DNA from: the human T2T-CHM13v2.0 reference genome, Homo sapiens
Assembly: GCF_009914755.1 (NCBI RefSeq)
Contig: NC_060936.1
Strand: one strand, 5' to 3'
Length of the DNA stretch: 64,000 bases
In this document: positions 2,961-64,000 of the stretch, piece by piece
Position numbering within the stretch: position 1 is the stretch's first letter
Layout of the letters: each line of letters starts with the position of its first letter
The notes under the pieces: model-generated
Seen by the model: the letters and a program-made list of their open reading frames with translations, nothing else
Database searches by the model: none
Told to the model about the DNA's origin: nothing
Program-made: the position numbers and the translations under genes

Positions 2961-5900
2961 TTCCTTAATGTTTAAGTCACTGTTTCTCAAACTATGGATC
3001 ATGATCATTTGTGGGTCATGAAATTAGTTCTGTGAATTGTTGATTCACATTTTAAGAATTCAGTACATTAGAGACTAGTCTAGATTATATCTTATTGCAT
3101 CATGTTGTAAGAAATGTAAATTATTTTATAAAATATAAAACACTTGTTTACTTGTTTTTTGTTTAACAACTATTTGTTGAATACCTACTCTGTTAAAGAC
3201 TGTTAGGTTGTGGGAAATATAGCAGTGAAAATAATATACGAACATGCACACTTTTTAAAAAATGAGTTGGAAGATAAAAAATGTACAACATATAGTGTGT
3301 TGGAAAAATAAGAGAAAAAAAGTACCCCAAACCTGTCTAATCTCATGAGGAGGGATTCTGTGGGGAATATTGGGATGCAACAGTAAAGAAAAGTGTTACC
3401 TCCCAAAATTCTTCACTCTACTGACATCCACATGGGGATAGTTGTACTATACAAAAATAAACAGAAATCTAAGTTTTCTAGGCAGTGATTGGCAGCAATG
3501 TAAATGGTAGGCCAAATTAGAACAAGAGCAAACAGAAAAATAGCTACAGTGAGGGTTGTCTCCAGAGTTTCCATAAAGAAACCTCTTTTTTTTTTAAACA
3601 AGCCTCTTTTCCCCCAAAATGTGCTGAAGGCTGATGGTTTTACACTGTTTGTGAAAATGAAGATGGAGAAGGTTTTTGTCATAGCATAGAATGGAAAGTT
3701 AGAATCACTATTGTTAAAAATTCTACTACCCCACAGTCAGGAATTCTCTACTGAGCACATTTATTTTTAGGATGCAGGCTCCTGAAATAGCATCTGGCCT
3801 ATCTTTTCCTGCTCTCCCTTCTCTTTTCTGCTACTCCCTATCCTCACAATCCTGTTTATTTCTACAAGACAGTGTCAGTTTTCCTTTCTTTGACTTCTTG
3901 CCCCAGAGTTAATGGTACATCAACATGAGAACCCCTTCTATAGCCACCTATCATTCTATTCTCCCTTAGCAACAAAACCTATTTGTTCCTTTATATTTGG
4001 GGACAGGTAAAATTTGTGGTCTTGGTCTGCCTTTGGGAGTCCTCCTATAACTCCTGCATTTGGGAAAGGAGTAGAGCTAAGTCCTATGTCCTCATATCCC
4101 GGTAGCCCCCAGTAGTGGAGGTAGCAGTTATGAGGGCATGTTTTTCTCTCTTCAAATGCTTCTGACTACTAATTGGACAGCTAATATCTAAGTAGATCAA
4201 AGAATTATACACAGTCATACACGAAAATATATATAGTGACACATGCTTTTTTCCTATGCTATATTTTGTTACTGACTTGCTTGTTTTTAAGAGAAATGCT
4301 ACTCATTTAGTTCTGATATGCCATTAATACTGAGATGGGAGCTACAGCACAGCTTCCCATTCCATGCATCTGGCTGAGATCAACAACTAAACAGTTCTCT
4401 GCGACACTCTACCCCCATCTTCAAAATCTTTCCCAACCCAGGCCTAAGATAGCCAAAATCAGTATTGATACAGGAAAGGAATTCTGTGTGTCCTCTCTAC
4501 TTTTGGTTAATAGATAAAACTTTCCCAGAAAGCTATGTTTTTGCCAATTTTTACAAATAAATTTGCATTGCCAGATGATAATAGCTGAGTAATAAAGCAA
4601 TAGAACATCAAGGCACTCTTCTATAGCAATGTCCATTCTAACTCTTTAAAGGTGTTCTAGGCACCATTTTAAACTACAGAGAAAATTAACTGAACATATG
4701 TAACTAAAGAAAAGGTACATTTGGACAAAAACAAATATTATTTTTAAAGAGCAAATATTTCTTTCTAGTGTGCTTATTTTTAAAATGCAGATCTGGAAGC
4801 AATTTAGGAAATCTACTGCATGTAAATTATAATTAACTTTGGATAGAAATGATTTGTTTTCTTTGAAAGAGGTAGATAAACTCAAGGGCAAGGAGGTCGG
4901 GTTCAAATCTTAATCCCAAAGTTAAGTGAGGCAGAAACAGACCCTGTATGTGATGCCTACTATAAATATGTGCGAGGCTGTTTAAATTGCTGACCACAGT
5001 ACAACATTGCTATTTTGCAGTAACAGAATCTTACACATTTATTTATGGTTTTGACTACACCGAGATTTTTCTGAGTATGATCATTTAAATTCAATCTGCC
5101 CATTATATAAAAATTAAAGTAAATTAGAATTTTACACCACAAGCCCAAGCCTGATAAATGCAGTTTCATATTCAATCAAAGTTTGTTCAAATATGAGTGT
5201 TACTGAAAGCTCTTAAATAAAATAATATCACTTATGGGGTAAAATGGATGGATAAAAGCAGAAATTAAAATTCTGATTAAAAGAGAAATGGTGGTATTCT
5301 GGAATGTCTACACTACTCACACTTCTTGAAGGGATCTTCTGCAGGTCACAACTTCTGCTGAGTGAATAATGGACCCTATGTTTCTACCTCTCTAGGCTAT
5401 AGATGGCTAAAGGGGTTCATTTTGAACCATGAGTAAGATAAGTAATCATGGGAAATTTTTAAGAGAGAGAGAATGAGAGAAAGAACAGAAGCATAGAGAA
5501 AAGCAGAGATGACTGAGGAGTATCTAAAATAGAAAGAGTAGTCCTATCTCTCTGTACCTCAGGGAATCTGAGGTCATTGAATTTTTCCTGGGGACACTCC
5601 TCAAGGATAAAGTTTCAAAAATTATGTCTGTGCAAAAGCAGACCTCTGCTTGCCAGTGGACCAGGTTCAAGGCATTTGTTGTCATTGGGGACTAGAATGG
5701 GCACATCAGACTAGGTGTCAAGTGCTACAAGAAGATAGACAAGGTAGCTGGTCAGAAGGAGGGACATATGTCAAAAGTTACTCTTTTCTCCTGTTCTTGA
5801 TTCTAATCACCTGTGTCCCCTAACACATTGCTTCATCAGATATGCAGATATGCATCTCCCCACTCAATATTTTCATTCAGCCTAAATATCTCCCTTCTTA

Positions 5901-13550: not shown

Positions 13551-15008
13551 TTTTTTTTTTCCTTTTTCCTTTTTTTTTTTTTTTTTAATTATACTTTAAG
13601 TTCTGGGATACATGTGCAGAATGTGCAGGTTTGTTACATAGGTATACATGTGCCATGGTAGTTTGCTGCACCCGTCAACCTAATGTAGATACATTAGGTA
13701 TTTCTCCTAATGCTATCCCTCCCCTAGCCCCCCAGCCACTGACAGGCCCCGGTGTGTGATGTTCCCGTCCCTGTGTCCATATGTTCTCATTGTTGAACTC
13801 CCACTTATGAGTGAGAACATGCAGTGTTTTGTTTTCTGTTCCTGTGTTAGTTTTCTGAGAATGATGGTTTCCAGCTTCATCCATGTCCCCGCAAAGCACA
13901 TGAGCTCATTCTTTTTTATGGTGTACATGTGCCACATTTTCTTTATCCAGTCTATCATTGGTGGACATTTGGGTTGGTTCCAAGTCTTTGCTGTTGTGAA
14001 TAGTGCTGCAATAAACATACGTGTGCATGTGTCTTTATAACAGCATGATTTATAATCCTTTGGGTATATACCCAGTAATGAGATTGCTGGGTCAAATGGT
14101 ATTTCTGATTCTAGATCCTTGAGGAATTGCCACACTGTCTTCCACAATGGTTGAACTAATTTACACTCCCATGAACAGTGTAAAAGCATTCCTATTTCTC
14201 CACATCCTCTCCAGCATCTGTTGTTTCCTGACTTTTTAATGATCATCATTCTAACTGGCATGAGATGGTATGTATCTCATTGTGGTCTTGATTTGCATTT
14301 CTCTAATGACCAGTGATGATAAGCTTTTTTTTTTTTTTGTATGTTTGTTGGCCACATAAATGTCTTCTTTTAAGAAGTGTCTGTTCATATCCTTGGCCCA
14401 CTTTTTGATGGGGTTGTTTTTTTCTTGTAAATTTGTTTAAGTTCCTTGTAGATTCTGGATATTAGCCCTTTATCAGATGGGTAGATTGCAAAAATTTTCT
14501 CCCACTCTGTAGGTTTCCCATTCACTCTGATGATAGATTTTTTTTTGCTGCACAGAAGCTCTTTAGATTAATTAGATCCCATTTGTCAATTTCGGCTTTT
14601 GTTGCCATTGCTTTTGGTGTTTTAGTCATGAAGTATTTGCCCATGCCTATATCCTGAATGGTATTGCCTAGGTTTTCTTCTAGGGTTTTTATGGTTTTAA
14701 GTCCTACAATTAAGTCTTTAGTCCATCTTGAGTTAATTTTTGTATAAGGTGTAAGGAAGGGGTCCAGTTTCAGTTTTCTGCCTATGGCTAGCCAGTTTTC
14801 CCAACACCATTCATTAAATAGGGTATCCTTTCCCTATTGCTTGTTTTTGCCAGGTTTGTCAAAGATCAGATGGTTGTAGATGTGTGGTGTTATTTCTGAG
14901 GCCTCTGTTCTGTTCCATTGGTCTGTATATCTGTTTTGGTACCAGTACCATATTGTTTTGTTTACTGTAGCCTTATAGTGTAGTTTGAAGTCAGGTTGCA
15001 TGATGCCA
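13551..15008 (-). mobile_element. L1PA (about PA7/8), 5'-truncated, ~1.45 kb
   Basis: Poly(T) followed by the L1 3'UTR; ORF2 C-terminus [26 protein letters not shown] (ORF 13713-14261); 16-bp TSD GAAGCTGAGGACTTTT at 13539-13554 and 15012-15027. Confidence 0.96.
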
Positions 15009-23357: not shown

Positions 23358-23745
23358 TGTTATGGACATTTAGGTCCCTCTTCAAGGAGGAAGGGCTTAT
23401 TTCCCATCTGCTGGAAATATGGCCTGAAAACAGCCCTCAATTATCAGCCTTCTTTAGCTGGAATGTCATGGCTCCAGAAAATTGCCTCCCCCAAAGTTTC
23501 ATCTCCTTCCAAGATCAGATCATATCCAATAATTAATTTACATGGGGTATAACAGCCAGCCCCAGCCACAACTCAGAATAATTGGAATGACCCTCTTAGA
23601 TCCAGAGCTCCCCATGTGTTGGCTGAGACCTTCACTGGGATCACATCACAGCTCCACTTCTCCCTATGCCCAATCTTGCTTCCATCACGTCCCTTCCAAG
23701 AATACTTCCTAATAAACATTCCACATGGGTTCCTGGGGTACCTGA
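23358..23745. mobile_element. Old ERVL LTR (LTR16/LTR33/LTR41 group)
   Basis: CAGCTCCACTTCTCCCTATGCCCAATCTTGCTTCC...CCTAATAAACAT motifs; family not resolved. Confidence 0.5.
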
Positions 23746-25236
23746 GATATAGGCAGAGGTCAGAATCACAGCATTTCACCAGTTTCATTTTTTTTTTCAT
23801 TTAAATTATGGAGAAAATATTATTTAAGGAAATATTTCATTGTGTAAGATAAGATTACAATTCTAGAAGTTAATTTTAGAGTCTGAAGAATATTTGGTTT
23901 AGATTTAAACAGTCTCAAAGAGAATTATGGAAAGTGGAATAATGATAGTATTCTGTATGATTTCTATAATTTATTGTTTTTATGAAAATATTTGTGCAAT
24001 TTTTAAAAAGAAGATACTACATAGATGTATTCAATCAAATAAATTAGGGGATTATTTACTGGCATGAAAACCAGAAGAGCATCTAATGCTGGCTCAGAAG
24101 AGAGAACCGATATGGTAAAGAGAGTTGCAGCGTTATACTAAGGCCAAGATCCATATACAAAACCCTAGGAAGATCACTATCTGTCTACTCAATGTCTCTT
24201 TTATGAATTTTTTTCCAGTCCAGCTCTTTGGTAGATGGCAGGCTTTATACAGAAGAGGAGTCTGGCACTAAACAAATTCTGTGTTCCTTCAAAAGTTCTC
24301 TACTTTACAACCTTTCTTCTCCAGTGATGGGTTCTACTTTCCTTCTGTTCCAGTGCAGAGTCATGAAATTCAACCTCTATTTTGCCGCAAAGTGGACAAC
24401 TCAATACACCATGCCGTAATGAGCATTTTGAATATAACTGATTTTCAAGTAGATGAACTCTACTTAGTTCCTTTTAAATATTTTTCTCTAATTTTATCAA
24501 ACACACAGTTGGAAAACCTTACAGATATATTGGAATAACTTCTTTTTCTAGCAGCATTTTGCAGAAGTTATCTAGGGAGTAAAACATGCTGTATTAACAC
24601 TTCTCTATCCATCAGAAGTTTTCATTAATTCTGACCAAATAGATCAAATAAAGCTATTTCAGTGGCATGATGAAAGAGTAATTCTAATTAAAGGCATTGG
24701 AATAACAATACATAGGTTGAACCTTCAGAGACTACATTATAAATCTGGCCTTATACCATAGAGCAATTTTGCCCAATATCCCAAGAAAAGGAAGGAATTT
24801 GCCGAGCTTACCTATTTATTTCCAATCATTTGTAATGTTTAAAATAGACTTATAATTGTCCATACTTTTGAATTTATTTTTAATAAGAGTTATAGGAAAA
24901 ACTTTTAATTAAGCGACTGAAATATAATTTTCTGAAATATCTCAAGTATGTTCTTGGATCCTGGAGGTTTACATGGCCTTGATCATGGCATTTTCTTCAG
25001 GCACTGCCTAGAAATACTTTCTCTGAAGGGAATTGAACCCAACTGTCTACTAATTGTGTTTAAATTAATTTATTTATTTTTGGAATCAGTTTTCCACATT
25101 TTAAAAAATTCATAGCTCCCACAAACACATAAATAACTTCATGTAATGTGAAATTTTGGTTGTAATACACATGTTAAGATGCAAAATAGTCTTATCCTTA
25201 AGATTTTGATTTTATCAATTTAATATTAATTTTAAT

Positions 25237-25651
25237 TTTAATGATAATTGTGCACTTTTTAACGAAAATAGTCTTATTAAAATATGTTATGAACATATAT
25301 GATCTTATACTTTGGATTTAGAGCAGTAAAGCCATGGTTTTATTAAAATATGGTGAGTATATTGAACTCACTTGCACTATTTGCATACTTGTAATATTTG
25401 TGGATTACTAATTTCAAAATAAATCAAATAGTTGGTTATGCAACTTAAAAGATAGATAATAACAAAGAAATAACAAAATGGAATCCACAATGGAGTTAAA
25501 TTTACCAAGTGATTTTACTTATATTGGATACACCATCCCTTAAAAGAGAAAAGAACTAACGTGTCAAGTAGAAAACATGCATTTCACTACATAGTAGCTC
25601 TCTGAACATGGGCAACTTATCTAAATTCTAAACTTCAGCTTCTTTAAATAG
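25237..25651 (+). repeat. Left arm (probable donor) of a 415-bp inverted repeat
   Basis: Reverse complement of 27216-27630; manual alignment gives 14 substitutions and no indels. Confidence 0.97.
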
Positions 25652-26572
25652 AGGTGATAATTCACAATGTGATTGTAAGAATAATTGAGGTAACATAAGT
25701 AAAGTGCTTATAGCACATATAAAGTCCCTCGCATATAGGAAGGATACAAAAAATCATAACGATCATTAATATTTGCTATCAACGCATCTGCATTTCTGTT
25801 TCTATCACTAGCTATGAGTCCTGGGCAAGTCATCAAGATCCTCTGACTTACATTTTCCTTGTGAGTAATATAGGGCATTAATAGGACTTGAATGGTCTTC
25901 TGTACAAGCTGTTTTGAGGATTAAATGAGATAGTATATGTGAAGGTGAAATGTCCATCATTATAGTCCTAACTTTTCAGATGAGGAAACTAAAGGCTAAT
26001 AGCTGAAAGCAAACTATTCAAGGTCAGGTTACTAGCAAGTAGCTGAGCCAGGGTTTAAAAACCAAACCTTCAATTCCTGAACCCACGACTCATTTCATCT
26101 TATCACACAGCTGCCTCTAGTAAAGTTTTTAAGAACTTCCTTTGCATGGTCCAGGATTAGTCCCAGGGCATGGGATAGGATTAAGTTTTTAAAAGAAGCA
26201 AAAGAACCTCAGCTGCTAGGGTGAAAGGTCATGGGAGTGGAGAACTATAACACCAACCATACTATTTCTAATAATAGGCCTCCCTGACTACTGAATTCAG
26301 TAGTATTGCTGAAGTCAATCTTTGACTTTTCCTTCATCACCCACAGCTACTTTTGCAAGTCTCACTCTTTCTTCCCTTAAAATATTTCCATTATCCACAA
26401 TTTTCTCCCCATTTTCACTGCTAACACTCCAGCGCAGCCTTTATTGCTGTGTGCCTGGTACAGCAAATAACCTTAGGCTGTTATCTCCTCCCTCTACCAA
26501 TTACCCTCAACAATACTGCTAGATGGCTCTCCCAGAGATATCACTTTTCAGATTTACGATGCCTGGGATTAT

Positions 26573-26778
26573 CCACTGGTGTGCTGGACCTGGCTCTCAC
26601 CAGCTGGAGAAAGTGGATTGTGCACATGTCTTCTCAATCACTGCCTTCAGGGAAGTCATGTTGATAACTTTAAATTGTCCATTGTGGGTGCATTTATACC
26701 ATAGACATCAGCAAACACTATGAATCAGGGCATATTTTCCCCCAGGGGCTTATTGTTAAACATTTAGCAGCACCGATT
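26573..26778 (+). mobile_element. MER63A hAT-Blackjack MITE
   Basis: CACTGGTGTGCTGG...GATTGTGCACAT...GCAAACACTATGAATCAGGGC...TTGTTAAACATTTAGCAGCAC with degenerate terminal inverted repeats. Confidence 0.8.
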
Positions 26779-27005
26779 ACATCTGACATAGTCACTACTT
26801 ACAGGTACTATACACAGCATCTGACACACAGTAGTACTCAATATACATTTGCTCAATAAATTACAGATGTTCGCCCCCTCATAAATCTGTATGTCTTGTC
26901 TGCACAATTCATAGTCCAACTCTACTGCCTAGCTTTCTAGACTTGCCTCATTTGGTCCTCCACTAGGAAGTCAATGTTTTTATTCTTTTATAAGACTGAG
27001 TTCTG

Positions 27006-27699
27006 GGCTGGGCATGGTGGTTCACACCTGTAATTCCAGCATTTTGGGAGGCCGAGGCAGGCGGATCACTTGAGGCCAGGGGTTCAAGACCGCCCTGGCC
27101 AACGTGACGAGACCCTGTCTCTCAGGTGCAGTAGCACATGCCTGTAATCCAGCTACTTGGGAGTCTGAGGCACAAGAATCGCTTGAACCCAGGAGGCAGA
27201 GGTTGCAATGAACCCCTATTTAAAGAAGCTGAAGTTTAGAATTTAGGTAAGTTGCCCATGTTCAGAGAGCTACTATGTAGTGAAATGCATGTTTTCTACT
27301 TGACACATTAGTTCTTTTCTCTTTTAAGGGATGGTGTATCCAATATAAGTAAAATCACTTGGTAAACTTAACTCCATTGTGGATTCCATTGTGTTATTTC
27401 TTTGTTATTATCTATCTTTTAAGTTGCATAACCAACTATTTGATTTATTTTGAAATTAATAATCCACAAATATTACAAGTATGCAAATAGTGCAAGTGAG
27501 TTCAATGTGCTCATCATATTTTAATAAAACCATGGCTTTGCTGCTCTAAAACCAAAGTATAAGATCATATCTGTTCATAACATATTTTAATAAAACTATT
27601 TTCATTAAAAAGTGCACAATTAGCATTAAACCATATTGATGGCACCACCGCACTCCAGCCTGGGTGACAGAGCAAGACTCTCTTTAAAAAAATTAAAAA
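27006..27699 (+). mobile_element. Alu (J or old S) with a deleted linker and a 415-bp insertion in the right arm
   Basis: Alu sequence 27006-27214 resumes at ~27638 (GATGGCACCACCGCACTCCAGCCTGGG); TSD ATAAGACTGA(G/A)TTC at 26990-27003 and 27699-27712. Confidence 0.95.
27216..27630 (-). repeat. Right arm of the 415-bp inverted repeat (copy inside the Alu)
   Basis: CTATTTAAAGAAGCTGAAGTTTAGAATTTAG...AAGTGCACAATTAGCATTAAA is the reverse complement of 25237-25651. Confidence 0.97.
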
Positions 27700-28799
27700 T
27701 AAGACTGAATTCCACTTAAGCTGCTGGGGCCACCACTGGTGCTGGCATGGTCTATGACTAATCCCTCCTCTAGGCCTCAGGTCCTTCTCTTTCTCCCACC
27801 TGGAAAGCTCTCTCCTTCTACTTGTGCAAATCCTGCTAGTTCTTTACAGTCCAGATCAGATTTCACATCTTCCCTGAAAATTCCATCATTCTAAGACATT
27901 CTCATCTCTATATAGTTAGTCCATTTATTTAGCATTTCATTACTTTGTATTGTTTCATTCCCATTAGTTTTATTTCTGTAGCTATATCACGAACTTCTTA
28001 AAAGCAGCGTCCACTTTTTTTTTCTTATTTGTATTTCCACAAGTCAGGTAATATACATTAAGACTGAAGAAGTCCATCTGGCCCAGTTGTTCCCAAACAC
28101 TTTTTCATGGTCTGATCCAAAACATTCTTCTCACATAAATTCTGGACTGTTGTTTTTGAGGCACTTAATGCCCACACACCTCCAACCCTCAAGCTCACAG
28201 TGTTCAGTATAAGGGGAACCTTTGAGCTTCCTAACCACAAGCTGCTCTAGCGAGTCATCCAAACTGCAGCCAAAGGTATGGCACAATCATTGCTTGGACT
28301 TTCAGTTTAGTTTTCCCAGAATATTCCAAATGAAATAAAATAGGTTTTATTTTCTATTTTTTGCCAACACATCTATGTATTGCAAATAGTATTTTCTATG
28401 TTAAACTGTGAAAAAATAATATAGTATAGGAAACAGTTGGATGAATAAACTCTACTTTGTGATATATAATCAAATATAGATTTCCAAATTGATAATTGTT
28501 CAAGGAAATAATTACAGAAGTGGTATAAAATAAGCCTTTATATTATAAATGTATGAATTTTAATAATATTTTTCCTCCGTGAATACATATGTGCATATGT
28601 ATGCATGAATGTCTTATCGTGATAAGGACATCTGTATTCTGCAATTGAGTCCCTCTACCTTTTTTGCTGGTAAAAATGACCTTCGTCTTATTAAGTAATG
28701 GTGATAGTTGAATACAGTTCATTTAATAGCTTTATTTGCAAAACTAAAAAGTTGGCAATTCAATGTTTTTTATTCTACTCCAGCCTCATCAAAACCTTA

Positions 28800-28892
28800 A
28801 ATATGTATATATACATATATCTTATATACATCATATATATATATATATATATTTATGTATCTGTTTATGTGTATGCATACATATATGTATAT
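28800..28892. repeat. (TA)n / TATG low-complexity tract
   Basis: Direct read. Confidence 0.85.
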
Positions 28893-28893
28893 T

Positions 28894-29278
28894 TGCCTTA
28901 GTTCATTTGGCTGCTATAACAAAATTACCACAGACTGAGTAATTTATAAAAATAGAAATTCATTGTTTACAGTTCTAGAGGCTGGGAAGTCCAATATCAA
29001 GGCACTAGCAGACTCAGTGTTTGGTGAGGGCTTGCTCTGCAGTTCAAAGATGGCACCTATTATTGCATTGTCACATGGCAGCAGCAGAGAATGCTATGAT
29101 CTCACGTGGCAGGAGGGGCCAGGAAACTGCTTTTAAATTTCTTTCATCAGGGCACTAATCCCATTCATGAATGTGAAGACCTCATTACTTAATTACTTCC
29201 AAACAGGCCCCACCTCTTAGTGCCACCACAATGGGAATTAGGTTTCAACGTAAATTTTGGAAGAATTAGACCAAAGCA
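28894..29278 (-). mobile_element. MSTD/MLT1A-like MaLR LTR
   Basis: GCTGCTATAACAAAATTACCACAGACTGAGTAATTTATAAA...GAGGCTGGGAAGTCCAATATCAAGGC...GGCCCCACCTCTTA. Confidence 0.85.
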
Positions 29279-29299
29279 ATATGTATAGGTATATATGTC

Positions 29300-29913
29300 T
29301 GTTCAGTAAAGGGTTAACTTGGACTTGGGCTATTCAAATACTGTGCATTCCAACTGTCTTCAAGGCTGGCCTTGACTGGCTCCTAAGAGATAACCCATAA
29401 GGTCTTGGAATATCCTACCTAATAAACATGTCATTTTATACCTGAGCTTTGGGCCATGCCAGAAGTGTTTCTGCTAACAATGTGATGTATGGTGAATGTC
29501 TGTTTTTGTTCACCTGGGACCTAGGGCCATTCTCTATCAGTTTGACCTCTGGGAGGGACTGGAGACTGAGTAGCTAAGGTCAGTCATGACAGCACCTCAT
29601 GCCTACGTGACTGACCCCCAAGACTGACCCCAAAAATGCTGGAGTGAGTTTTCCTGGTTGGCCACACATGCTGTCACACCTTGTTACTGAGAGAATTAAG
29701 CGCTGTCTGCTGTTTCTACAACTTCACTTGAAGAAGATACCTGAAACCATGTGCTTACCTCTAGATTTCTGTGTGTTTTTCCTTTGCTGATTTTAATCTG
29801 TATCTTTTCTGCTGTAATAATCTGCAACCATGGGTATAACAGCTTTCTGAGTTCTGTGAAACCTTCCAGTGAAGCATCAAATCTAAGGATGGTCTTGGGA
29901 ACCCCCAGTACAA
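29300..29913 (+). mobile_element. MER77-like ERVL LTR
   Basis: AAAGGGTTAACT...GACTGGCTCCTAAGAGATAACC...CTTGGAATATCCT...ATGCCTACGTGACTGACCCCCAA...GGTCTTGGGAACCCCCAGTACA. Confidence 0.75.
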
Positions 29914-32284
29914 CATATATGGGTATATGTGATTCACTGGTTGTGAAACTCAAAACCTTGATAACCACTGAGCTCAGTTCATCCTCCCTCATTTCCACCT
30001 CCAGCATACCCCAACTCTACCCTGCCTCACCCACATCCCTATCTCCTGCCTCCTTTTCTCCATTTATAAATGAGGAAACATAGGCCCAGGGAGATTAAGT
30101 AATTTTCAGTATAATGTAATATTTAACATTCTGTAATATAATTACTTAGCCATCACAAAAATCCCAGAGGTTGGAACTAAAATCTTTATTTATAAGTGAG
30201 AACTCCGAAGGCTTGAGTAAGATACTTGTCAGAGGTCATCAGCTAGTTAAGATATGGAGTTGGGATTTAAGTCCAGATATTCTGACTCTAGACCCCAGCT
30301 CCTAACCTCTGTGTTCTAGTGTCTCAATGAATTAAGGAATGAATGAATTAAATCACTGCTATTAACCCTATCAAACCTTCTGTTCACTTTCTTGGGATTA
30401 CTTGCACACATTGTCTACAACGAAGCAGCCATTCATCATTAATGACTTAGACCAAAGAATACTGACTTACATAGCAGAGCCAATGTACTTAGCCGTATAG
30501 GTATGTTGTGCCATTTGCCATGTGTGCTCTATGAGTGACACCTCCTAGAGGTATTCAATGCAGTGGCCTAACACTAAGCCTAATTGCTGAACAATTAGGT
30601 AATCTGAGAAGTAAAAAGCTTAATTCAGGGGGCATACAAGGTTTATAATTGGGACTATTCATCTACCTGCAAAAAAGATTCCCTTTGAAGTACAATGATT
30701 AAATACTTATGTTTGTAGTTTGCTAAGAAATTCAGTATACAAGGATAGATCAGATAACTGTTTCTGCACTTATATTTCTTAATATTTAATTAGGGAGAGA
30801 AGCCAGTGGTTCACTCACAAATCATAATTTGAAGAACTCACTATAAAGACTGAAATTCACCAGGCCATCATTTTCTTTCTTATAACAATGCAGTCAACTC
30901 ATCACCACTTAATGAGAGGCAGAATAACTAGGCAGTTAAGAACACAGATTGGAGAGCTTGAATCCCAGCTTCATTGCCAGAAGTTTTGTGAATTTGGCCA
31001 TGTTACTCAACCTCTCAATGCCTACATTTCTTCGTATGTAAAATGTGAATGATAACAACAGTATCTACTCTGGGTATTAGGAGCTCAAAATGAACTAATG
31101 TTTGCAAATGTTTAGCACAAGTTCAAGCACATGGTAAATGCTGCATAAGTATATATTAAGTAAGTATTGTGCTTGGAGAGAACTTTAAATCTTTTTTTTC
31201 ATTCTCACTGATTTATCATTTCTAACATGTCTTATACATTTAGACGACTTTAGTTAGTTTATGTTGTTTGGTCACATTTAAGAATAAGATGAAAGAAAAA
31301 GAGGAGGGGAAATAATCCATATTAATATCATTGCTTTTCCTTGCCATCAGTAGATTGAAAATCTACTCAGGATGCACAGTTTCTGGTTCTGGGAAAACTG
31401 TTAAACACACTGGAATTATTTCGTATCACAGAAACAAACATACACAAACATTTTATGAACTCTTAACCAACAGGTGAGGAAATTAAAGCCAAGCTTAAAG
31501 TCTCCATGAAAAAGGCTCGAATTACAATACGAATTTGCCCTCAACTAAAATGAATGACTTCAGAAAAAAAACTGGAAATTTCAGGGCCTCCCAAACAAAA
31601 CAAATTCAAAGTTTTGGTTTATCTCATAATTGTCTTTTGCAGTCCAAGCAGACTGACAGAATGAATCAAACTTCTAAGATGTGGTGACATTTAGTTATCC
31701 TACTTAGATAGGTACAAATATTTTTAGAAATTTGCCCAGAGTCTAACAGGAAAAAGTATTGGAACAAAAGAAAGATTTCTATATTGGCTGCATTGTCCTT
31801 ATACTAACTCAATAACGAAAATAAGAATCAAGGAATATAACAATTATGTACCCACCTCTGAAGTGTTTAAAGGAGTAATTGACCTTTCACAGGCTGAGGT
31901 AGTTACATACATTTTACTCCATAATTATTTACTTTGGAAATAACAGAGTAGCTATTTAACTTCCTTTTTCTTTCCTTCTACCCCATTGATGTGAGGCAGA
32001 CCTTTTCTGTAAAAGGAAACAGGATCTTAATAAATCATTGGCAACAATCAAACTTAATCATAATCACCTCTCACCTACAAGAGGTATCAAAAGTTAAAAC
32101 TGCATATTTTATTTCCATCATGACTTTCTCTCTATTTTGAAATTATCTTGTTCAAATGTATCCAAATAACAACCTTCACTAATTTCGCTTGAAGATACTA
32201 GAAAATGCTGTGGCAAACTGTCCAAAATAACTTCCTAGAAATTCTGAGCAAATTGGACTGCTTCAATTTTACAATAACTATTAA

Positions 32285-40255: not shown

Positions 40256-40839
40256 TTTTTATTTTATTTTGTTTTAATTTTATTATTATTATACTTTAAG
40301 TTTTAGGGTACATGTGCACAATGTGCAGGTTTGTTACATATGTATACATGTGCCATGTTGGTGTGCTGCACCCATTAACTCGTCATTTAGCATTAGGTAT
40401 ATCTCCTAAGGCTATCCCTCCCCCCTCCCCCCACCCCACAACAGTCCCCAGTGTGTGATGTTACCCTTCCTGTGTCCATGTGTTCTCATTGTTCAATTCC
40501 CACCTATGAGTGAGAACATGTGGTGTTTGGTTTTTTGTCCTTGTGATAGTTTGCTGAGAATGATGGTTTCCAGTTTCATCCATGTCCCTACAAAGGACAT
40601 GAACTCATCATTTGTTATGGCTGCATAGTATTCCATGGTGTATATGTGCCACATTTTCTTAATCCAGTCTATCGTTGTTGGACATTTAGGTTGGTTCCAA
40701 GTCTTTGCTATTGTGAATAGTGCCGCTATAAACATACATGTGCATGTGTCTTTATAGCAGCATGATTTATAATCCTTTGGGTGTATACCCAGTAATGGGA
40801 TGGCTGGATCAAATGGTATTTCTAGTTCTAGATCCCTGA
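40256..40839 (-). mobile_element. L1PA (about PA3-5), 5'-truncated, ~580 bp
   Basis: TATACTTTAAGTTTTAGGGTACATGTGCACAATGTGCAGG 3'UTR; ORF2 end MFIAALFTIAKTWNQPKCP...SLIGGN* (ORF 40493-40735). Confidence 0.96.
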
Positions 40840-56723: not shown

Positions 56724-58713
56724 GCAGCCCTGCCTCTCCCTCTCCTTCTCCCCCTCCCCTCTCCCCTCTCCCCTCTCCCTTCTTCCCTCTCCCCTCTCCC
56801 TCTCGGTCTCCCTCTCCCTCTCGGTCTCCCTCTCCCTCTCTTTCCACGGTGTCCCTCTGATGCCGAGCCGAAGCTGGACTGTACTGCTGCCATCTTGGCT
56901 CACTGCAACCTCCCTGCCTGATTCTCCTGCCTCAGCCTAACGAGTGCCTGCGATTGCAGGCATGCGCCACCACGCCTGACTGGTTTTCGTACTTTTTTGG
57001 TGGAGACGGGGTTTCGCTTTGTTGGCCGGGCTGGTCTCCAGCTCCTAACCGCGAGTGATCCGCCAGCCTCGGCCTCCTGAGGTGCCGGGATTGCAGATGG
57101 AGTCTGGTTCACTCAGTGCTCAATGGTGCCCAGGCTGGAGTGCAGTGGCGTGATCTCAGCTCCGCTACAACCTCCATCTCCCAGCCGCCTGCCTTGGCCT
57201 CCCAAAGTGTCGAGATTGCAGCCTCTGCCCGGCCGCCATCCCATCTGGGAAGTGAGGAGCGTCTCTGCCTGGCCGCCCATCGTCTGGGACATGAGGAGCC
57301 CCTCTGCCTGGCTGCCCAGTCTGGAAAGTGAGGAGCGTCTCTGCCCAGCCGCCATCCCATCTAGGAAGTGAGGAGCGCCTCTTCCCAGCAGCCATCCCAT
57401 CTGGGAAGTGAGGAGCGTCTCTGCCCAGCCGCCCATCGTCTGAGATGTGGGGAGCGCCTCTGCCCCGCCGCCCCGTCTGGGATGTGAGGAGCGCCTCTGC
57501 CCGGCCGCGACCCCATCTGGGAGGTGAGGAGCGTCTCTGCCCAGCCGCCCCGTCTGAGAAGTGAGGAGCCCCTCCGCCCGGCAACCGCCCTGTCTGAGAA
57601 GTGAGGAGCCCCTCTGCCCGGCAGCCACCCCATCTAGGAAGTGAGAAGCGTCTCCGCCCGGCAGCCGCCCCGTCCGGGAGGGAGGTGGGGGGGTCAGCCC
57701 CCCGTCCGGGAGGGAGGTGGGGGGGTCAGCCCCCCGTCCGGGAGGGAGGTGGGGGGGTCAGCCCCCCGTCCGGGAGGGAGGTGGGGGGGGTCAGCCCCCG
57801 CCCGGCCAGCCACCCCGTCCGGGAGGGAGGTGGGGGGGTCAGCCCCCCGCCCGGCCAGCCGCCCAGTCCGGGAGGTGAGGGGCGCCTCTGCCCAGCCGCC
57901 CCTACTGGGAAGTGAGGACCCCCTCTGCCGGGCCAGCCACCCCGTCCGGGAGGGAGGTGGGGGGGTCAGCCCCCCGCCCGGCCAGCCGCCCCATCCGGGA
58001 GGGAGGTGGGGGGGTCAGCCCACCGCCCGGCCAGCCGCCCTGTCCGGGAGGGAGGTGGGGGGTTCAACCCCCCGCCCGGCCAGCCGCCCCGTCCGGGAGG
58101 TGAGGGGCGCCTCTGCCCGGCCGCCCCTACTGGGAAGTGAGGAGCCCCTCTGCCCGGCCACCACACCGTCTGGGAGGTGTACCCAACAGCTCATTGAGAA
58201 CGGGCGGGGATGACAATGGCGGTTTTGTGGAATAGAAAGCGGGGAAAGGTGGGGAAAAGATTGAGAAATCGGATGGTTGCCGTGTCTGTGTAGAAAGTAG
58301 TAGACATGGGAGACTTTTCATTTTGTTCTGTACTAAGATAAATTCTTCTGCCTTGGGATCCTGTTGATCGGTGACCTTACCCCCAACCCTGTGCTCTCTG
58401 AAACGTGTGCTGTATCCACTCAGGGTTAAATGGATTAAGGGCGGTGCAAGATGTGCTTTGTTAAACAGATGCTTGAAGGCAGCATGCTCGTTAAGAATCA
58501 TCACCACTCCCTAATCTCAAGTACCCAGGGACACAAACACTGCGGAAGGCCGCAGGGTCCTCTGCCTAGGAAAACCAGAGACCTTTGTTCACTTGTTTAT
58601 CTGCCGACCTTCCCTCCACTATTGTCCTACGACCCTGCCAAATCCCCCTCTGCGAGAAACACCCAAGAATGATCAATAAAAAAAATTCAAATTAAAAAGA
58701 AAAAAAAAAAAAA
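56724..58713 (+). mobile_element. Full-length SVA (D-F type)
   Basis: CCCTCT hexamers ~56733-56840, antisense Alu-like region to ~57230, GC-rich VNTR to ~58180, SINE-R, AATAAA at 58675-58680, poly(A); TSD AAAGAGAAACAG at 56712-56723 and 58711-58722; TT/AAA endonuclease-type site. Confidence 0.98.
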
Positions 58714-60510
58714 GAGAAACAGAATTCATAAGCAAAGGATAAATAAGATACTTTTCAGGCAAGCAAATGCTAAGAGAATTTGACTACCAGACCTGCCTTA
58801 CAAGAGGTTCTGAAGGGAGTAATATGGAAAGGAAAGACCAACACGGACCGCCAAAAAAATTCACTTAAATACACAGACCACTGACACTATAAAGCAACCA
58901 TACAAACAAGTTTGCATAATAACCAGCTAACAACATAACAGGATCAAATTCGCATATGTCAATATTAACCTTATATGTAAATAGACTAAATACTCCAGTT
59001 AAAAGGCATAGAGTGGTGAGTTGAATAATGAAGCAAAACCCAACTGTATGCTGTCTTTAAGAGACCCATCTCACATGCAATGATACCCACAGGATGAAAA
59101 TAAATGGATGGAGAAAAATCCATTAAGCAAATGAAAAACAGAAAAAAAAAAAGCAGGCATTGCTATTCTAATTTCAAGCAAAACTGACTTTAAACCAACA
59201 AAAATTTTAAAAGATAAACAAAGAAAGGCATTGCATAATAGTAAAGGGTTCAATTCAACAAGAAGACCTAACTCCCTTAAATATATATGCATTCAACACA
59301 GGAGCACCCAGATTCATAAAGCAAGTTCTTGGAGACCTAGAAAGAGATTTAGATAACCACACAGTAACAGAGGGAGACTTCAACAGCCCACTGACTGTAT
59401 TAGAAAGATCATCAAGGCAGAAAACTAACAAAGATATTTAGGACCTGAACTTGACACTTGACCAAATGGACCTAATAGACATCTACAGAACTCTCTATTC
59501 AAAAACAACAGAATATACATTCTTCTCATCTGCACATGGCAGATGATCTAAAATTGACCACATGCCCAACCATAAAGCAATCCTTATCAAATTCAAAAAA
59601 ACTGAAATCATACCAATCACACTCTTGGACCACAGTACAATAAAAATTGAAATCAATATTAAGAAAATTGCTCAAAATCATACAATCACATGGAAACTAA
59701 ACAACTTGCTCCTGAATTACTTTTGGGTAAGCAATGAAATTAAGGCAGAAATCAAGAAATGGTTTGAAACTAATAAGAACAAAGATACAACATACCAGAA
59801 TTTCTGGAATACAGCTGATGCAGTGTTAAGAGGGAAGTTTATGGTATTAAATGCCCACATCAAAGAGTTAGAAAGATCTTAAATTAGCAACCTAACATCA
59901 CATCTAGAGAAACTAAAGAAACAAGAGCAAACCAACTCCAAAGCTAACAGAAAACAAGAAATAACCAAAACCAGAGCTGAACTGAAAGGAATTGAGCTAT
60001 GAAAAACCATATAAAAGATTAACAAGTTTGGTTTGTTCATTATTTAAAAGAATAAATAAAATACATAGACTGCTCATACTAGACTAATAGAAAAAGAGAG
60101 AAGATCCAAATAAACACAATGAGAAATGACAAAGGGGACATTATCACTGACACCACAGAAATACAAAAAAAAATCTCAGGGACAACTAACATCTCCATGC
60201 ACACAAACTAGAACCCTAGAAGAAATGAATAAATTCCTAGAAACATACAACCTCTCATGATTGAACCAGGAAGAAATTGAATCCCTGAGCAGACCAACAA
60301 TGAGTTCCAAAATTGAATAAGTAATAAAAACCCTACCAACCAGAAAAAGCCCAGGACCAGATGGAGTCATAGCCAAGTTCTATCAGATATATAAAGAAGA
60401 GCTGGTATTATTCCTACTGGAACTATTCCAAAAAATTTAAAATGGACTGCTCTGTAACTCATTCTTTGAGATCAGCATCACCCTGATACTAAAACCTGAC
60501 AGACAGAAAG

Positions 60511-61562: not shown

Positions 61563-64000
61563 CATTCATATAGAACCAAAAAAAAAAAAAACAATCCAAA
61601 TAACCAAGGCAATTCTAAGCAAAAAGAACAAAGCTGGAGGTATCACATTACCTGATGTCAAAAACAGACACATAAATCAATAGAACAGAATAGGGAGCCC
61701 AGAAACAATGCTACATACTTACAACCATCTGTTTTTGACAAAGTCGACGAAGACAAACAATGGGGTCTGAAATCCCTGGTCAATAAATAATGCTGGGATA
61801 ACTGGCTAGCCATATGCAGAAGATTGAATCTGGACCCCTTCTTTTCACCATATACAAAAATCAACTCAAGATGGATTAAAGATTTAAATGTAAAACCTAA
61901 AACCATAAGAACCCTGGACGATAGACTAGGAAATATGATTCTGGACATAGACCCTGGCAAAGATTTCATGATGATGACACTAAAAGCAATCACAACAAAA
62001 ACAAAAATTGACAAACGGGGCCTAATTAAGCTAAAGAGCTTCTGCACAGCAAAAGAAAGTATCAACAGAGTAAACAGGCAACCTACAGAAAGGGAGACTC
62101 TATTTGCAAACTATGCATCCAATAAAGGCCTAATATCCAGAATTTATAAGGAACTTAAAACAAGCTAACAAGGAAAAAACACACAGGTGCATGAAAAGGC
62201 AGGCAAAGGACTTGCACAGACACTTTTCAAAATAAGCCATAAATGAGGCCAGTAAATATATGAAAATATGCTCAACATCACTAATTATGGAGAAATGCAA
62301 ATCAAAACCACAGTGAGATGTGGTTTCATCTCATACCAGTCAGAATGGCTGTTATTAAAATGTCAAAAAATGACAGATGCTGAAGAGGTCACAGAGAAAG
62401 GAGAAAGCTTATATGCTGCTCATGGGAATGTAAATTAGTTCAGTCATTGTGGAAAGCGTTTTGGTGATTTCTTCAATAACTTAACATAAAATTACCATTT
62501 GACCCAGCAATCCCATCACTGGGTATATACCCAAAGGAATATAAATTGTTCTACCATAAAGACACATGTATGCATATGTTTGTCACAGCTCTATTCACGT
62601 AGCAAAGACGTGGAATCAACCTAGATGCCCATCAATGGTAGACTGGATAAGGAAAATATGGTACACATACACCATGAAATACTACACAGCCATAAAAAAG
62701 AACTAAATTATGTCCTTTTCAACAACATGGATGAAGCTGGAGGCCATTATCCTAAGTGAACTAATACAGGAACAGAAAACCAAATACTGCATATTTTCAC
62801 TTATAAGTGGGAGCTAAACATTGAGTACACATGGACACAAAGAAGGGAACAACAGACACCGGGACCTACTTGAGGGTGGAGGGTGAGGATCAAAAAACTA
62901 CGTATCAGGTACTATGCTTATTACTTCAGTGACAAAATAATCTGTATACCAAATCCTTGTGACACCCTTGTGATTAAATTATAAATTATAAAGGCTATGA
63001 GTTGAGAAAGACAATATTTCTTCCCTTATACATAATGTTCAAGTTGCTGAATGACTGACCAGGATATTTCACCAGAATTTAGATTGAAACAAAAAAGGCT
63101 GGAAGTTTCAGGGACAGAATTAAGAATTTGGCTATGAGATAGTAAATGTTAAGGCTATGATTAAAGAATATCTAAGCAGGCAAAGATCCAAATCAAGAAT
63201 ATTAACAAAGACAGGTTGGAGTTGGCAAGTTCCTTGGAATCTAATTAGAAATCAGGTAGGTCAGTTATCTGGGAGGACTTAAAGCCATGCTGGAAGACAG
63301 AGGCTGAAAATTAGAGTTTCTGGGCAATGCAAGATCAGAAAATCAAGCCAAAAAGCAACGCTCAGATTCCAAGTAGGTGGCTTTAGTAACAGGCATGGGA
63401 AATCAACAATATAAATGAGGTTTATTATTGAGCTAAAGATTCAGTGAGCCTAGGGCTTTCTATGTGTTTAGCCCAGGGCTGGAATTTGTCTCATAGCAAG
63501 AGACTGGCATGAAATTTCAGATACCTTTCACTTGGATGAAGAACTAAGAGAATGAAGAATAAGGCAATTCTTGATGTAGGGATCCAAACTCTAGGTATAT
63601 TAGACTTTCTTGAGCTAATTTATGAGCATGATAGAGTTTTAGCAAATACAGGATTATAAAATTGTCAAATTAGGATCTCTTAAAATCAATAGTTGGGTCA
63701 ATTTCATGGAGACTCTGATATGACATTTTTACTTTGGTAGAATTAAATGTTGCTGACTAGTCTTGTGTCTTCAAAAGGATAATGCACAATCTAAATTATT
63801 GCTGAAAAGCTGAAATAAGACATTTGGTTTCACATGTGAGAATATGGAGTTTTGCTCTTAGGCACTAGATCTGAGGGGACAAACCCTTCAACCCAAGAGG
63901 TTGAGCTACCTTGGGTCATAACAGCCACTGTGATTGCTGCTATGAGAAAAAAGCAATCAGTATGCAGGAATAGGCAGTATAATTAGTTCTCTACATCAAC

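What the first reader, a model, noticed from the sequence alone, without database searches (positions are those of the whole stretch)
25237..27712. 415-bp inverted copy of neighbouring unique DNA pasted inside an Alu, forming a near-perfect long inverted repeat
Seen: the Alu at 27006-27699 (TSD intact) breaks after GGTTGCAATGAACC and resumes at GATGGCACCACCGCACTCC with almost no Alu sequence lost. The intervening 27216-27630 is the reverse complement of 25237-25651, with 14 substitutions in 415 nt (~96.6%), no indels and a 1564-nt spacer. The insert has no poly(A) or TSD of its own. The left junction shares ACC microhomology with the donor. The right junction has a CCATATT filler, whose complement AATATGG occurs in the donor near 25347. 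Established: microhomology-primed local templated insertions arise from polymerase-theta end joining or replication template switching (MMBIR/FoSTeS). Inference: a repair event much younger than the Alu, or one homogenised later by conversion. If transcribed on either strand it would give a ~415-bp non-Alu dsRNA stem (ADAR, Dicer or MDA5 substrate). It could also mediate inversion of the 1.56-kb spacer.
Basis: partly seen in the sequence, partly recalled or inferred. Interest (0 to 1): 0.8.

Follow-up and report, generated by a model that had tools for sequence, protein, structure and literature searches.

The report
Old inverted duplication pasted into an Alu
A 415-base stretch of unique human DNA was copied backwards into an old Alu element 1.6 kb away millions of years ago, a real but ordinary scar of DNA-break repair with no sign of a present function.

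Summary
Window 25237-25655 and 27212-27630 form a 419-nt ungapped inverted repeat with 15 mismatches (96.4%) and a 1556-nt spacer. The right arm plus a 7-nt filler (27631-27637) splits an old Alu. The Alu has lost at most 2 nt and keeps a 13-of-14 target-site duplication. The T2T genome holds only these two copies of the arm, so it is not a dispersed repeat. The differences look neutral (11 transitions, 4 transversions), which argues against an assembly artefact.

Best reading: a break or stalled fork inside the Alu was repaired by copying the flank 1.56 kb upstream in reverse orientation. Copying was primed on 3 nt of microhomology and sealed with a short filler, roughly 10-30 million years ago.

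This is a known class. A survey of 1,019 long-read genomes reports 277-311 polymorphic inverted duplications, median 284 bp, templates within 2 kb, mostly 1-15 bp microhomology (PMC12350158). Classic polymerase-theta insertions are far shorter (3-30 bp). The dsRNA and inversion ideas remain untested. No transcript is annotated here, and the longest perfect match between the arms is 67 nt. Interest is low to moderate.

The parts
25237..25651 (+). Donor arm: unique, AT-rich (28% GC) DNA that served as template
   Evidence: register alignment; its only other match in the whole genome is the right arm. GC 0.279, 2 CpG.
25652..25655 (+). Donor-side end of the homology: one mismatch (25652), then GGT, the complement of the ACC that ends the Alu 5' part (3-nt microhomology)
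   Evidence: The chance of 3 nt or more of junction microhomology is about 0.05 under uniform base use.
25656..26989 (.). Spacer, single-copy apart from an old dispersed repeat at about 26569-26773
   Evidence: only a self hit in the window; dispersed genome hits only for query 3070-3274 (window 26569-26773) and query 1-198 (window 23500-23697, outside this part).
26990..27003 (+). Left target-site duplication of the Alu (ATAAGACTGAGTTC)
   Evidence: 13 of 14 identical to 27699-27712.
27006..27215 (+). Alu 5' part (left monomer and most of the right monomer; the A-rich linker is missing). It ends in ...GAACC at 27214. Base 27215 is of unclear origin.
   Evidence: alignment with 6 window Alus. 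Metazoa_SRP match at 27007-27123, 50.1 bits, below the gathering score of 70. Alu hits in the window.
27216..27630 (-). Inserted inverted copy of 25237-25651 (14 mismatches in 415, no indels)
27631..27637 (+). 7-nt filler CCATATT at the return junction
   Evidence: It is not homologous to the sequence next to the donor. Its complement occurs once in the donor at 25347, a weak match (0.05-0.13 expected).
27638..27698 (+). Alu 3' part and A-rich tail, collinear with the 5' part
   Evidence: the Alu hits of the 27631-27699 query start at query base 8 or later (= 27638); alignment.
27699..27712 (+). Right target-site duplication of the Alu (ATAAGACTGAATTC)

Best explanation
It is a fixed, ancient inverted-duplication insertion and today a neutral relic.

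Shown: an old Alu with its target-site duplication already lay at 27006-27698. The 415 nt that now split it are the reverse complement of unique DNA 1.56 kb upstream, and that DNA is still in place. At most 2 nt of Alu were lost. One junction has 3 nt of microhomology (ACC/GGT) and the other has a 7-nt filler.

Inferred mechanism: a double-strand break or collapsed fork arose within the Alu. The + strand 3' end (...GAACC-3') paired with GGT at 25653-25655 on exposed + strand DNA. That DNA was either its own resected flank folded back, or the lagging-strand template behind the fork. A processive polymerase copied leftwards to 25237 and then dissociated. The extended end was rejoined to the other Alu end by end joining that added 7 nt.

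In the four-point template-switch notation this is a '3-2-1-4' event.

Inferred age: from 3.6-3.7% arm divergence, about 10-30 million years, far younger than the Alu. No current function is indicated.
For: - The repeat is real: 419 nt, 15 mismatches, no indels, spacer 1556 nt.
- Direction of copying is fixed by the Alu. Its two parts are collinear and contiguous against 6 other Alus, with at most 2 nt missing. The TSD matches at 13 of 14 positions. So the right arm is the insert.
- The genome holds only two copies: 2 first-look candidates, both scored. The same search method reached 69-71% identity for other old repeats in the 3.5-kb query, so a dispersed family would probably have shown.
- The insert has no poly(A) and no TSD of its own.
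- Differences between the arms look like neutral decay: 11 transitions and 4 transversions, and both CpGs of the donor are TpG in the copy.
- K2P distance is 0.037, with a Poisson 95% interval of 2.0-5.9%. The split Alu is 16.7% from a crude consensus of the other 6 Alus and is the most diverged of the 7.
- Literature, passages read:
  - MMBIR-type templated insertions are defined as inverted, near their template, and flanked by microhomology (PMC8421209).
  - The four-point model lists type 3-2-1-4/1-4-3-2 as creating an inverted repeat, 31% of human-chimp events (PMC5453318).
  - In 1,019 long-read genomes, inverted duplications were the most common non-mobile-element 'inversion' class: 277 events, median 284 bp, template sought within a 2-kb window, mostly 1-15 bp microhomology. 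The authors read this as a replicative origin (PMC12350158).
Against: - Microhomology is only 3 nt, about 5% by chance. The base right after it (27215) fits neither donor nor Alu.
- The filler's match to the donor is weak (0.05-0.13 expected), so a second template switch is not shown.
- No outgroup with the uninterrupted Alu could be examined. The empty site is inferred from the Alu alignment only.
- The tract (415 nt) and the distance (1.56 kb) exceed what short-range template-switch studies report. The longest event was 318 bp (PMC9435742), and MMBSearch looks only within 100 bp.
- In an experimental system, short insertions (median 184 bp) at junctions were traced to ssDNA fragments. Their strand pattern was said to exclude MMBIR for those junctions (PMC12807874). 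Capture of a fragment would give the same product here.
- The sequence cannot tell which polymerase acted, or whether the template was the same molecule, the sister chromatid or the homologue.
Confidence: 0.7

Rival explanations
1. Fragment capture instead of continuous copying. A free 415-nt DNA fragment from the flank was ligated into the Alu break by microhomology-mediated or classical end joining. It could be a fill-in or displaced single strand complementary to the resected 3' overhang.
For: PMC12807874 (passages) reports short insertions of 0.1-1 kb (median 184 bp) near breakpoints. The authors suggest they originate as ssDNA complementary to the 3' overhang of resected breaks. Their junctions show >2 bp microhomology or non-templated additions. 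Here the insert has the sequence of the strand complementary to the + strand 3' overhang, lies 1.56-1.98 kb from the break, and has one microhomology junction and one filler junction.
Against: That evidence comes from fragmented chromosomes in cultured cells and cancers, not from simple germline events. Here there is a single insert rather than a chain. The long-read population survey reads the germline class as replicative. The final sequence cannot separate the two routes.
Confidence: 0.2
2. Classic polymerase-theta end joining made the whole 415-nt insertion by snap-back synthesis.
For: The template is inverted and local, there is short microhomology, and a filler lies at the second junction. 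Pol theta makes inverted-repeat templated insertions from hairpin-primed synthesis (PMC7165422).
Against: The same paper gives 3-30 bp as the characteristic size, templates typically within 30 bp, first synthesis tracts rarely over 10 bp, and observed insertions of 1-157 bp. Here the tract is 415 nt and the template is 1.56 kb away.
Confidence: 0.07
3. RNA-templated or retrotransposition-linked origin. Either a local antisense transcript was reverse transcribed into the break, or L1 reverse transcriptase jumped templates while the Alu itself was being inserted.
For: Templated sequence insertions without TSD or poly(A) are described as a class in humans (PMC5110952, search listing and abstract start only).
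Against: There is no poly(A), no TSD of its own and no A/T-rich nick site at the break. Formation together with the Alu is contradicted by the ages: arms 3.6% apart, Alu about 15-17% from a crude consensus, with no significant sign of conversion. No transcript is annotated here (hub table).
Confidence: 0.04
4. Not one insertion event: an assembly artefact, two members of a dispersed repeat family, a foldback transposon with long terminal inverted repeats, or an inversion formed by staggered breaks.
For: The window was seen in a single assembly only. Long inverted repeats can be artefacts of library preparation.
Against: - Artefact: such arms would be identical, but 15 neutral-looking differences are present.
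- Repeat family: there are only 2 copies in the genome.
- Transposon: the 5' part of the Alu lies inside the unit and the 3' part outside, in perfect continuity.
- Staggered-break inversion: it would require the spacer, and so the Alu 5' part, to be inverted relative to the Alu 3' part. They are collinear and the TSD is intact.
Confidence: 0.02
5. The repeat has a present role. It might be transcribed into a ~415-bp hairpin that feeds ADAR, Dicer or MDA5, or it might act as a substrate that flips the 1.56-kb spacer.
For: If transcribed, either strand folds with 408 in-register arm-arm pairs in the minimum-energy structure. Template-switch hairpins can seed new miRNA genes (PMC10710096, listing and abstract start only). 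Some intergenic inverted duplicates are expressed (PMC5398296, passages).
Against: - No gene or transcript is annotated over it (hub table).
- No Rfam family matches the arms. The only hit there is a Streptococcus sRNA family at E 0.98, which is noise.
- The differences look neutral.
- The longest perfect identity is 67 nt. By recall this is well under the roughly 200-300 nt usually cited for efficient homologous exchange in mammals.
- PMC5398296 itself set 1,000 nt as the largest spacer likely to give hairpins.
Confidence: 0.07

Closest known systems
Inverted duplications in human long-read structural-variant catalogues (SVAN class; PMC12350158)
   Same: The inserted sequence is the reverse complement of reference sequence within 2 kb of the insertion point. 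The size is in range (their median is 284 bp; here 415). Microhomology is short (they report mostly 1-15 bp; here 3). There is no poly(A) and no TSD.
   Different: Those events are polymorphic and young. This one is old (3.6% arm divergence) and presumably fixed, and it lies inside a datable Alu that shows the empty-site state. I did not see their distribution of template distances or their supplementary tables.
Template-switch mutations under the four-point model (PMC5453318, PMC9435742) and MMBIR templated insertions, MMB-TI (PMC8421209)
   Same: The geometry is '3-2-1-4': leave, copy a nearby upstream stretch in reverse complement, return to the point of departure. This creates an inverted repeat. 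The insert is inverted, local and has junction microhomology.
   Different: The scale differs. Those events are typically tens of bases, the longest reported being 318 bp, and MMBSearch looks for templates within 100 bp. Here the tract is 415 nt at 1.56 kb, and the return junction has a 7-nt filler rather than microhomology.
Polymerase-theta templated insertions (TINS; PMC7165422)
   Same: Break repair leaves an inverted copy of flanking DNA. The 7-nt filler is in the TINS size range.
   Different: TINS are 3-30 bp with templates usually within 30 bp. The 415-nt arm is more than tenfold longer and 50 times farther away.
[quoted passage not shown]
   Same: Inserts are 0.1-1 kb and derive from the strand complementary to a resected 3' overhang near the break. 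Junctions show microhomology or added bases.
   Different: They were described for shattered chromosomes and cancer genomes, often as chains. Here there is a single insert in an otherwise intact germline locus.
Fold-back inverted duplications and origin-dependent inverted-repeat amplification (PMC3907307, PMC10766183, PMC10766186; search listings only)
   Same: A 3' end or leading strand switches to the complementary strand nearby, giving inverted copies separated by a single-copy spacer.
   Different: Those produce kilobase-to-megabase copy-number changes, often with terminal deletions or extrachromosomal intermediates. This is a 415-nt insertion with no loss of flanking DNA.

Membership tests
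Local inverted-duplication / templated insertion | The insert is the reverse complement of sequence close by (within about 2 kb), and the template is retained | tested here: met
   415/419 nt, 96.4-96.6% identity, template 1.56 kb upstream and still present.
Local inverted-duplication / templated insertion | The insert interrupts previously continuous sequence (an empty site existed) | tested here: met
   the two Alu parts are contiguous against 6 other Alus, with at most 2 nt missing. TSD 13 of 14. This is indirect, because no orthologous empty site was seen.
Local inverted-duplication / templated insertion | Microhomology or short filler at the junctions; no poly(A) and no TSD of the insert | tested here: met
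   3-nt ACC/GGT at one junction, 7-nt filler at the other, no A-tract at either end of the insert and no duplicated target. By itself the microhomology is only about 5% unlikely.
Local inverted-duplication / templated insertion | The inserted sequence is not a mobile element or dispersed repeat | tested here: met
   2 of 2 genome candidates are the two arms; no other hit to the arm, although the search reached 69-71% identity elsewhere in the query. Very old or short relatives could still be missed (the tool's own caveat).
Polymerase-theta templated insertion (TINS) | Insert of about 3-30 bp copied from within about 30 bp of the break | tested here: not met
   The 415-nt tract is 1.56 kb away, against the sizes in PMC7165422. 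For the 7-nt filler alone the size fits but the template is not shown.
L1-mediated retrotransposition / class 1 templated sequence insertion | Poly(A) tail, target-site duplication, endonuclease-type A/T-rich target | tested here: not met
   none of the three is present at the insert's borders.
DNA transposon with long terminal inverted repeats (foldback type) | The whole unit inserted as one piece with a flanking TSD; multiple genomic copies | tested here: not met
   one Alu runs across the inner border of the right arm; no other copies.
Alu SINE (the host element) | Dimeric 7SL-derived body, A-rich tail, flanking TSD | tested here: met
   alignment with 6 Alus; left monomer matches Metazoa_SRP at E 6.7e-11, but 50.1 bits is below the gathering score of 70. 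TSD 13 of 14 and an A-rich tail. The linker between the monomers is deleted. The subfamily was not determined, because no reference consensus was available.

The most novel reading that the evidence does not exclude
The locus might be transcribed, making it one of the rare long (about 415 bp, 96% paired) non-Alu hairpin RNAs of the human genome. Such an RNA could be a hyper-edited ADAR substrate, a source of hairpin-derived small RNAs or an innate-immune dsRNA ligand. Alternatively, the arms might still exchange, so that the 1.56-kb spacer exists in both orientations in human or ape populations.
Probability: 0.07. Interest if true: 0.5.

Novelty: new member of a known kind. Interest (0 to 1): 0.25.

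Why it matters
It matters mainly as a clean, datable example. Because the insert landed in an Alu, the pre-insertion sequence can be read off almost to the base. One can therefore see that a germline repair event copied 415 nt from 1.56 kb away with next to no loss of target DNA. Fossils of this kind inside transposable elements could be mined genome-wide. That would measure how often, how far and how long such inverted copying runs in primate germlines, extending the short-range template-switch catalogues to the hundreds-of-bases scale. For this single locus no effect on genes or phenotype is indicated. It lies in a gene-poor interval between ADAMTS20 and PUS7L.

Tried and rejected
A second call sent in the same turn failed on a missing field. 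I did not try again.
- Third copy or dispersed family: rejected. One search found only the two arms in the genome. One search found none in the window at word size 9. One search gave no further hit to the arm in a 3.5-kb query.
- Partial gene conversion: 9 mismatches fall in the first 124 nt and 6 in the last 295 nt. The max-chi-square permutation test gives p = 0.16, so this is not supported.
- Second template switch as the source of the filler: the 8-mer ACCATATT does occur in the donor strand at 25347, with 0.046 expected. This is suggestive only and is not claimed.
- Extended complementarity at the priming site beyond ACC/GGT: none in the register alignment.
- RNA genes and ORFs: no Rfam family matches the arms apart from one noise hit at E 0.98. 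Only one ATG ORF of at least 60 aa overlaps 25000-27800 (26523-26723, 66 aa, in the spacer). I give it no weight.
A crude majority consensus of the six other window Alus was used instead. It mixes subfamilies and includes a few misaligned columns at the junction, so the 16.7% is approximate.
- Primate orthologues, other human assemblies, RNA-seq, editing and small-RNA data: none is reachable with these tools.
- Supplementary tables of PMC12350158 were not opened. They might list template distances or this locus.
Full report
**1. The observation**

The stretch was read directly. The repeat finder on 24000-29000 reports a single inverted pair: arms 25237-25655 and 27212-27630, 419 nt, 96% complementary, 1556 nt apart. 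An ungapped register alignment gives 15 mismatches in 419 positions and no indels.

The homology stops abruptly on both sides. Over the whole 64-kb window this is the only inverted pair above 90% identity. The other 10 pairs of at least 80 nt are 76-90% complementary; several (I4, I7-I11) fall on the Alus aligned, and the others lie in other repeated stretches.

**2. The host Alu**

The sequence on either side of the right arm is one Alu.
- 27006-27211 finds 16 other Alu matches in the window. The 27631-27699 query finds 6, and these begin at query base 8 or later, that is at 27638.
- Aligned with six other Alus of the window, the element runs up to ...GAGGTTGCAATGAACC and picks up again at GATGGCACCACCGCACTCC. 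The other Alus read ...GAGCCGAGATCAC ACCACTGCACTCC there, so at most two bases (GA) are missing.
- The left monomer also matches the metazoan SRP RNA model (E 6.7e-11; 50.1 bits, below the gathering score of 70).
- The flanking 14-mers at 26990-27003 and 27699-27712 agree at 13 of 14 positions.
- The Alu lacks its A-rich linker.
- It is the most diverged of the seven Alus, 16.7% from a crude majority consensus of the other six. That figure is approximate: it mixes subfamilies and includes a few misaligned junction columns.

Because both Alu parts are collinear and share one target-site duplication, the right arm must be the insert and the left arm, or an identical allele of it, the template.

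**3. The junctions**

On the + strand the Alu ends in ACC (27212-27214). The same three bases would be produced by copying GGT at 25653-25655, which is 3 nt of microhomology. Under uniform base use, 3 nt or more arises at about 5% of random junctions. Base 27215 fits neither template.

At the far end, copying stops at 25237. Seven bases, CCATATT (27631-27637), follow before the Alu resumes. Their complement occurs in the donor at 25347. With the preceding A it is an 8-mer. The window holds 20 other copies of the 7-mer and 7 of the 8-mer, so 0.13 and 0.046 matches are expected in a 419-nt arm. This is suggestive of a second short templated step but is not evidence for it.

The insert has no poly(A) and no duplicated target of its own.

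**4. Is it a repeat family or an artefact?**

The held genome is the T2T assembly that contains the window. A search with the left arm found two places only, itself and the right arm (2 candidates, 2 scored).

A 3.5-kb query covering the left flank, the arm and the spacer (23500-27005) gave 41 matches (81 first-look candidates, 40 scored). Apart from the self match and the right arm, the listed matches map to window 26569-26773 or 23500-23697, at 69-88% identity. So the method sees old repeats, and the arm is not one at that sensitivity. The tool warns that counts are lower bounds.

An assembly or library artefact would give identical arms. Here the 15 differences are 11 transitions and 4 transversions, and both CpGs of the left arm are TpG in the right arm. 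That is the pattern of long neutral decay.

**5. Age**

The Kimura two-parameter distance between the arms is 0.037. The Poisson 95% interval for the raw proportion is 2.0-5.9%. By recall, this is about the human-orangutan genome distance and below the human-macaque distance. With recalled substitution rates of 0.5-1 x 10^-9 per site per year, T = d/2mu gives roughly 18-37 million years at the point estimate, and about 10 million at the lower bound with the faster rate. I therefore give about 10-30 million years, with wide error.

The Alu is several times more diverged, so the insertion is much younger than the Alu. The mismatches are denser in the first 124 nt (9) than in the remaining 295 nt (6). 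A max-chi-square permutation test gives p = 0.16, so later homogenisation by gene conversion is not indicated.

**6. Mechanism**

Shown: a duplicative, inverted copy of nearby unique DNA sits in a formerly continuous Alu with almost no target loss. It has 3 nt of microhomology at the departure junction and a 7-nt filler at the return junction.

Inferred: a + strand 3' end ending in ...ACC paired with GGT on exposed + strand DNA 1.56 kb behind it, was extended for about 415 nt, was released, and was joined to the other side of the break. The exposed template could be the end's own resected flank (fold-back) or the lagging-strand template of a stalled fork (template switch). The product is the same either way.

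In the four-point notation of Löytynoja and Goldman this is type 3-2-1-4, which creates an inverted repeat (PMC5453318, passages). It also has the stated signature of MMBIR templated insertions: inverted, close to the template, microhomology at junctions (PMC8421209, passages).

Against a pure polymerase-theta origin, templated insertions of that enzyme are given as 3-30 bp, with templates typically within 30 bp and first synthesis tracts rarely over 10 bp (PMC7165422, passages). The 7-nt filler fits that range; the 415-nt tract does not.

A serious rival is capture of a single-stranded fragment made on the resected overhang. This is proposed for the 0.1-1-kb insertions of the breakage-replication/fusion process, where the authors state that the strand pattern excludes MMBIR for those junctions (PMC12807874, passages). 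The sequence here cannot separate the two.

**7. Rejected alternatives**

- Retrotransposition: no poly(A), no TSD and no A/T-rich nick site at the break.
- Co-formation with the Alu by reverse-transcriptase template jumping: the ages disagree several-fold.
- A foldback-type transposon: the Alu runs across the inner edge of the right arm, and no other copies exist.
- An inversion made by staggered breaks: this would leave the 5' Alu part inverted relative to the 3' part, which it is not.

**8.

If the region were transcribed, either strand would fold with 408 in-register arm-arm pairs in the minimum-energy structure. The following count against a present role:
- No gene or transcript is annotated over the locus. 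The nearest feature is a pseudogene 4.6 kb downstream (hub table).
- No Rfam family matches the arms beyond a noise hit at E 0.98.
- The substitution pattern looks neutral.
- As an inversion substrate the arms now share at most 67 nt of uninterrupted identity. By recall this is below the length usually needed for efficient homologous exchange in mammals.
- With a 1556-nt spacer, hairpin or cruciform extrusion in duplex DNA is unlikely. One catalogue of inverted duplicates capped spacers at 1,000 nt for that reason (PMC5398296, passages).
- Widely spaced, diverged repeats do become reactive in long single-stranded DNA (PMC10164571, abstract).

These functional ideas are untested rather than refuted.

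**9. Comparison with what is known, and novelty**

The closest described class is the 'inverted duplication' insertions of long-read population surveys. In 1,019 genomes, 311 were reclassified from insertions, and 277 were analysed as the most common class among 733 non-mobile-element inversions. Their median length was 284 bp. They were annotated by realigning the insert within a 2-kb window around the breakpoint, and most had 1-15 bp microhomology, which the authors read as a replicative origin (PMC12350158, passages).

The present case meets the defining features of that class: inverted, within 2 kb, template retained, microhomology or filler, no retrotransposition marks, not a dispersed repeat. 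It differs only in being old and in sitting inside a datable Alu. It is larger and farther from its template than the short-range template-switch events catalogued so far, the longest of which is 318 bp (PMC9435742).

I searched the held literature five times and saw nothing about this particular locus. None of those searches used the locus or its coordinates as a term, so this is no claim that it is unpublished.

**Verdict**

It is a new member of a known kind, with no evidence of function. Interest is 0.25.

Noticed in passing
window 26569-26773 (inside the spacer): An old dispersed repeat: dozens of genome-wide matches at 69-88% identity over 56-200 nt. It looks MIR-like by recall, but the family was not tested.
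   Followed up: partly
window 23500-23697: A second old dispersed repeat, with genome matches at 69-79% identity.
   Followed up: no
window 28882-29264 and 29290-29917: Very common dispersed repeats just downstream of the locus: 4667 first-look candidates in the genome, and the scored ones are 68-86% identical. The family was not determined.
   Followed up: no
window 28811-28905: TA/TG-rich simple sequence that gives sub-threshold matches to three miRNA precursor families on both strands (23-30 bits against gathering scores of 81-100). This is a low-complexity effect, not a gene.
   Followed up: partly
window 27130-27140 (within the split Alu): The host Alu has lost the A-rich linker between its two monomers (about 34 alignment columns). 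It is the most diverged of the 7 Alus compared.
   Followed up: partly
window 57221-58179: Tandem arrays with spacings of about 37-49 nt and a 156-nt unit (families D1, D2, D10). They overlap the RefSeq enhancer at 57881-58724 listed in the hub table.
   Followed up: no
window 13556-14863, 40256-40839 and 61734-62888: Three copies of one dispersed element. 13556-14122 and 40256-40839 are direct at 83-90%. 13723-14863 and 61734-62888 are inverted at 76-78%.
   Followed up: no
window 25220-25229: A 10-nt AT palindrome (TTAATATTAA) in AT-rich low-complexity sequence lies 8 nt beyond the point where copying of the donor stopped. This may be coincidental in DNA of 28% GC.
   Followed up: no
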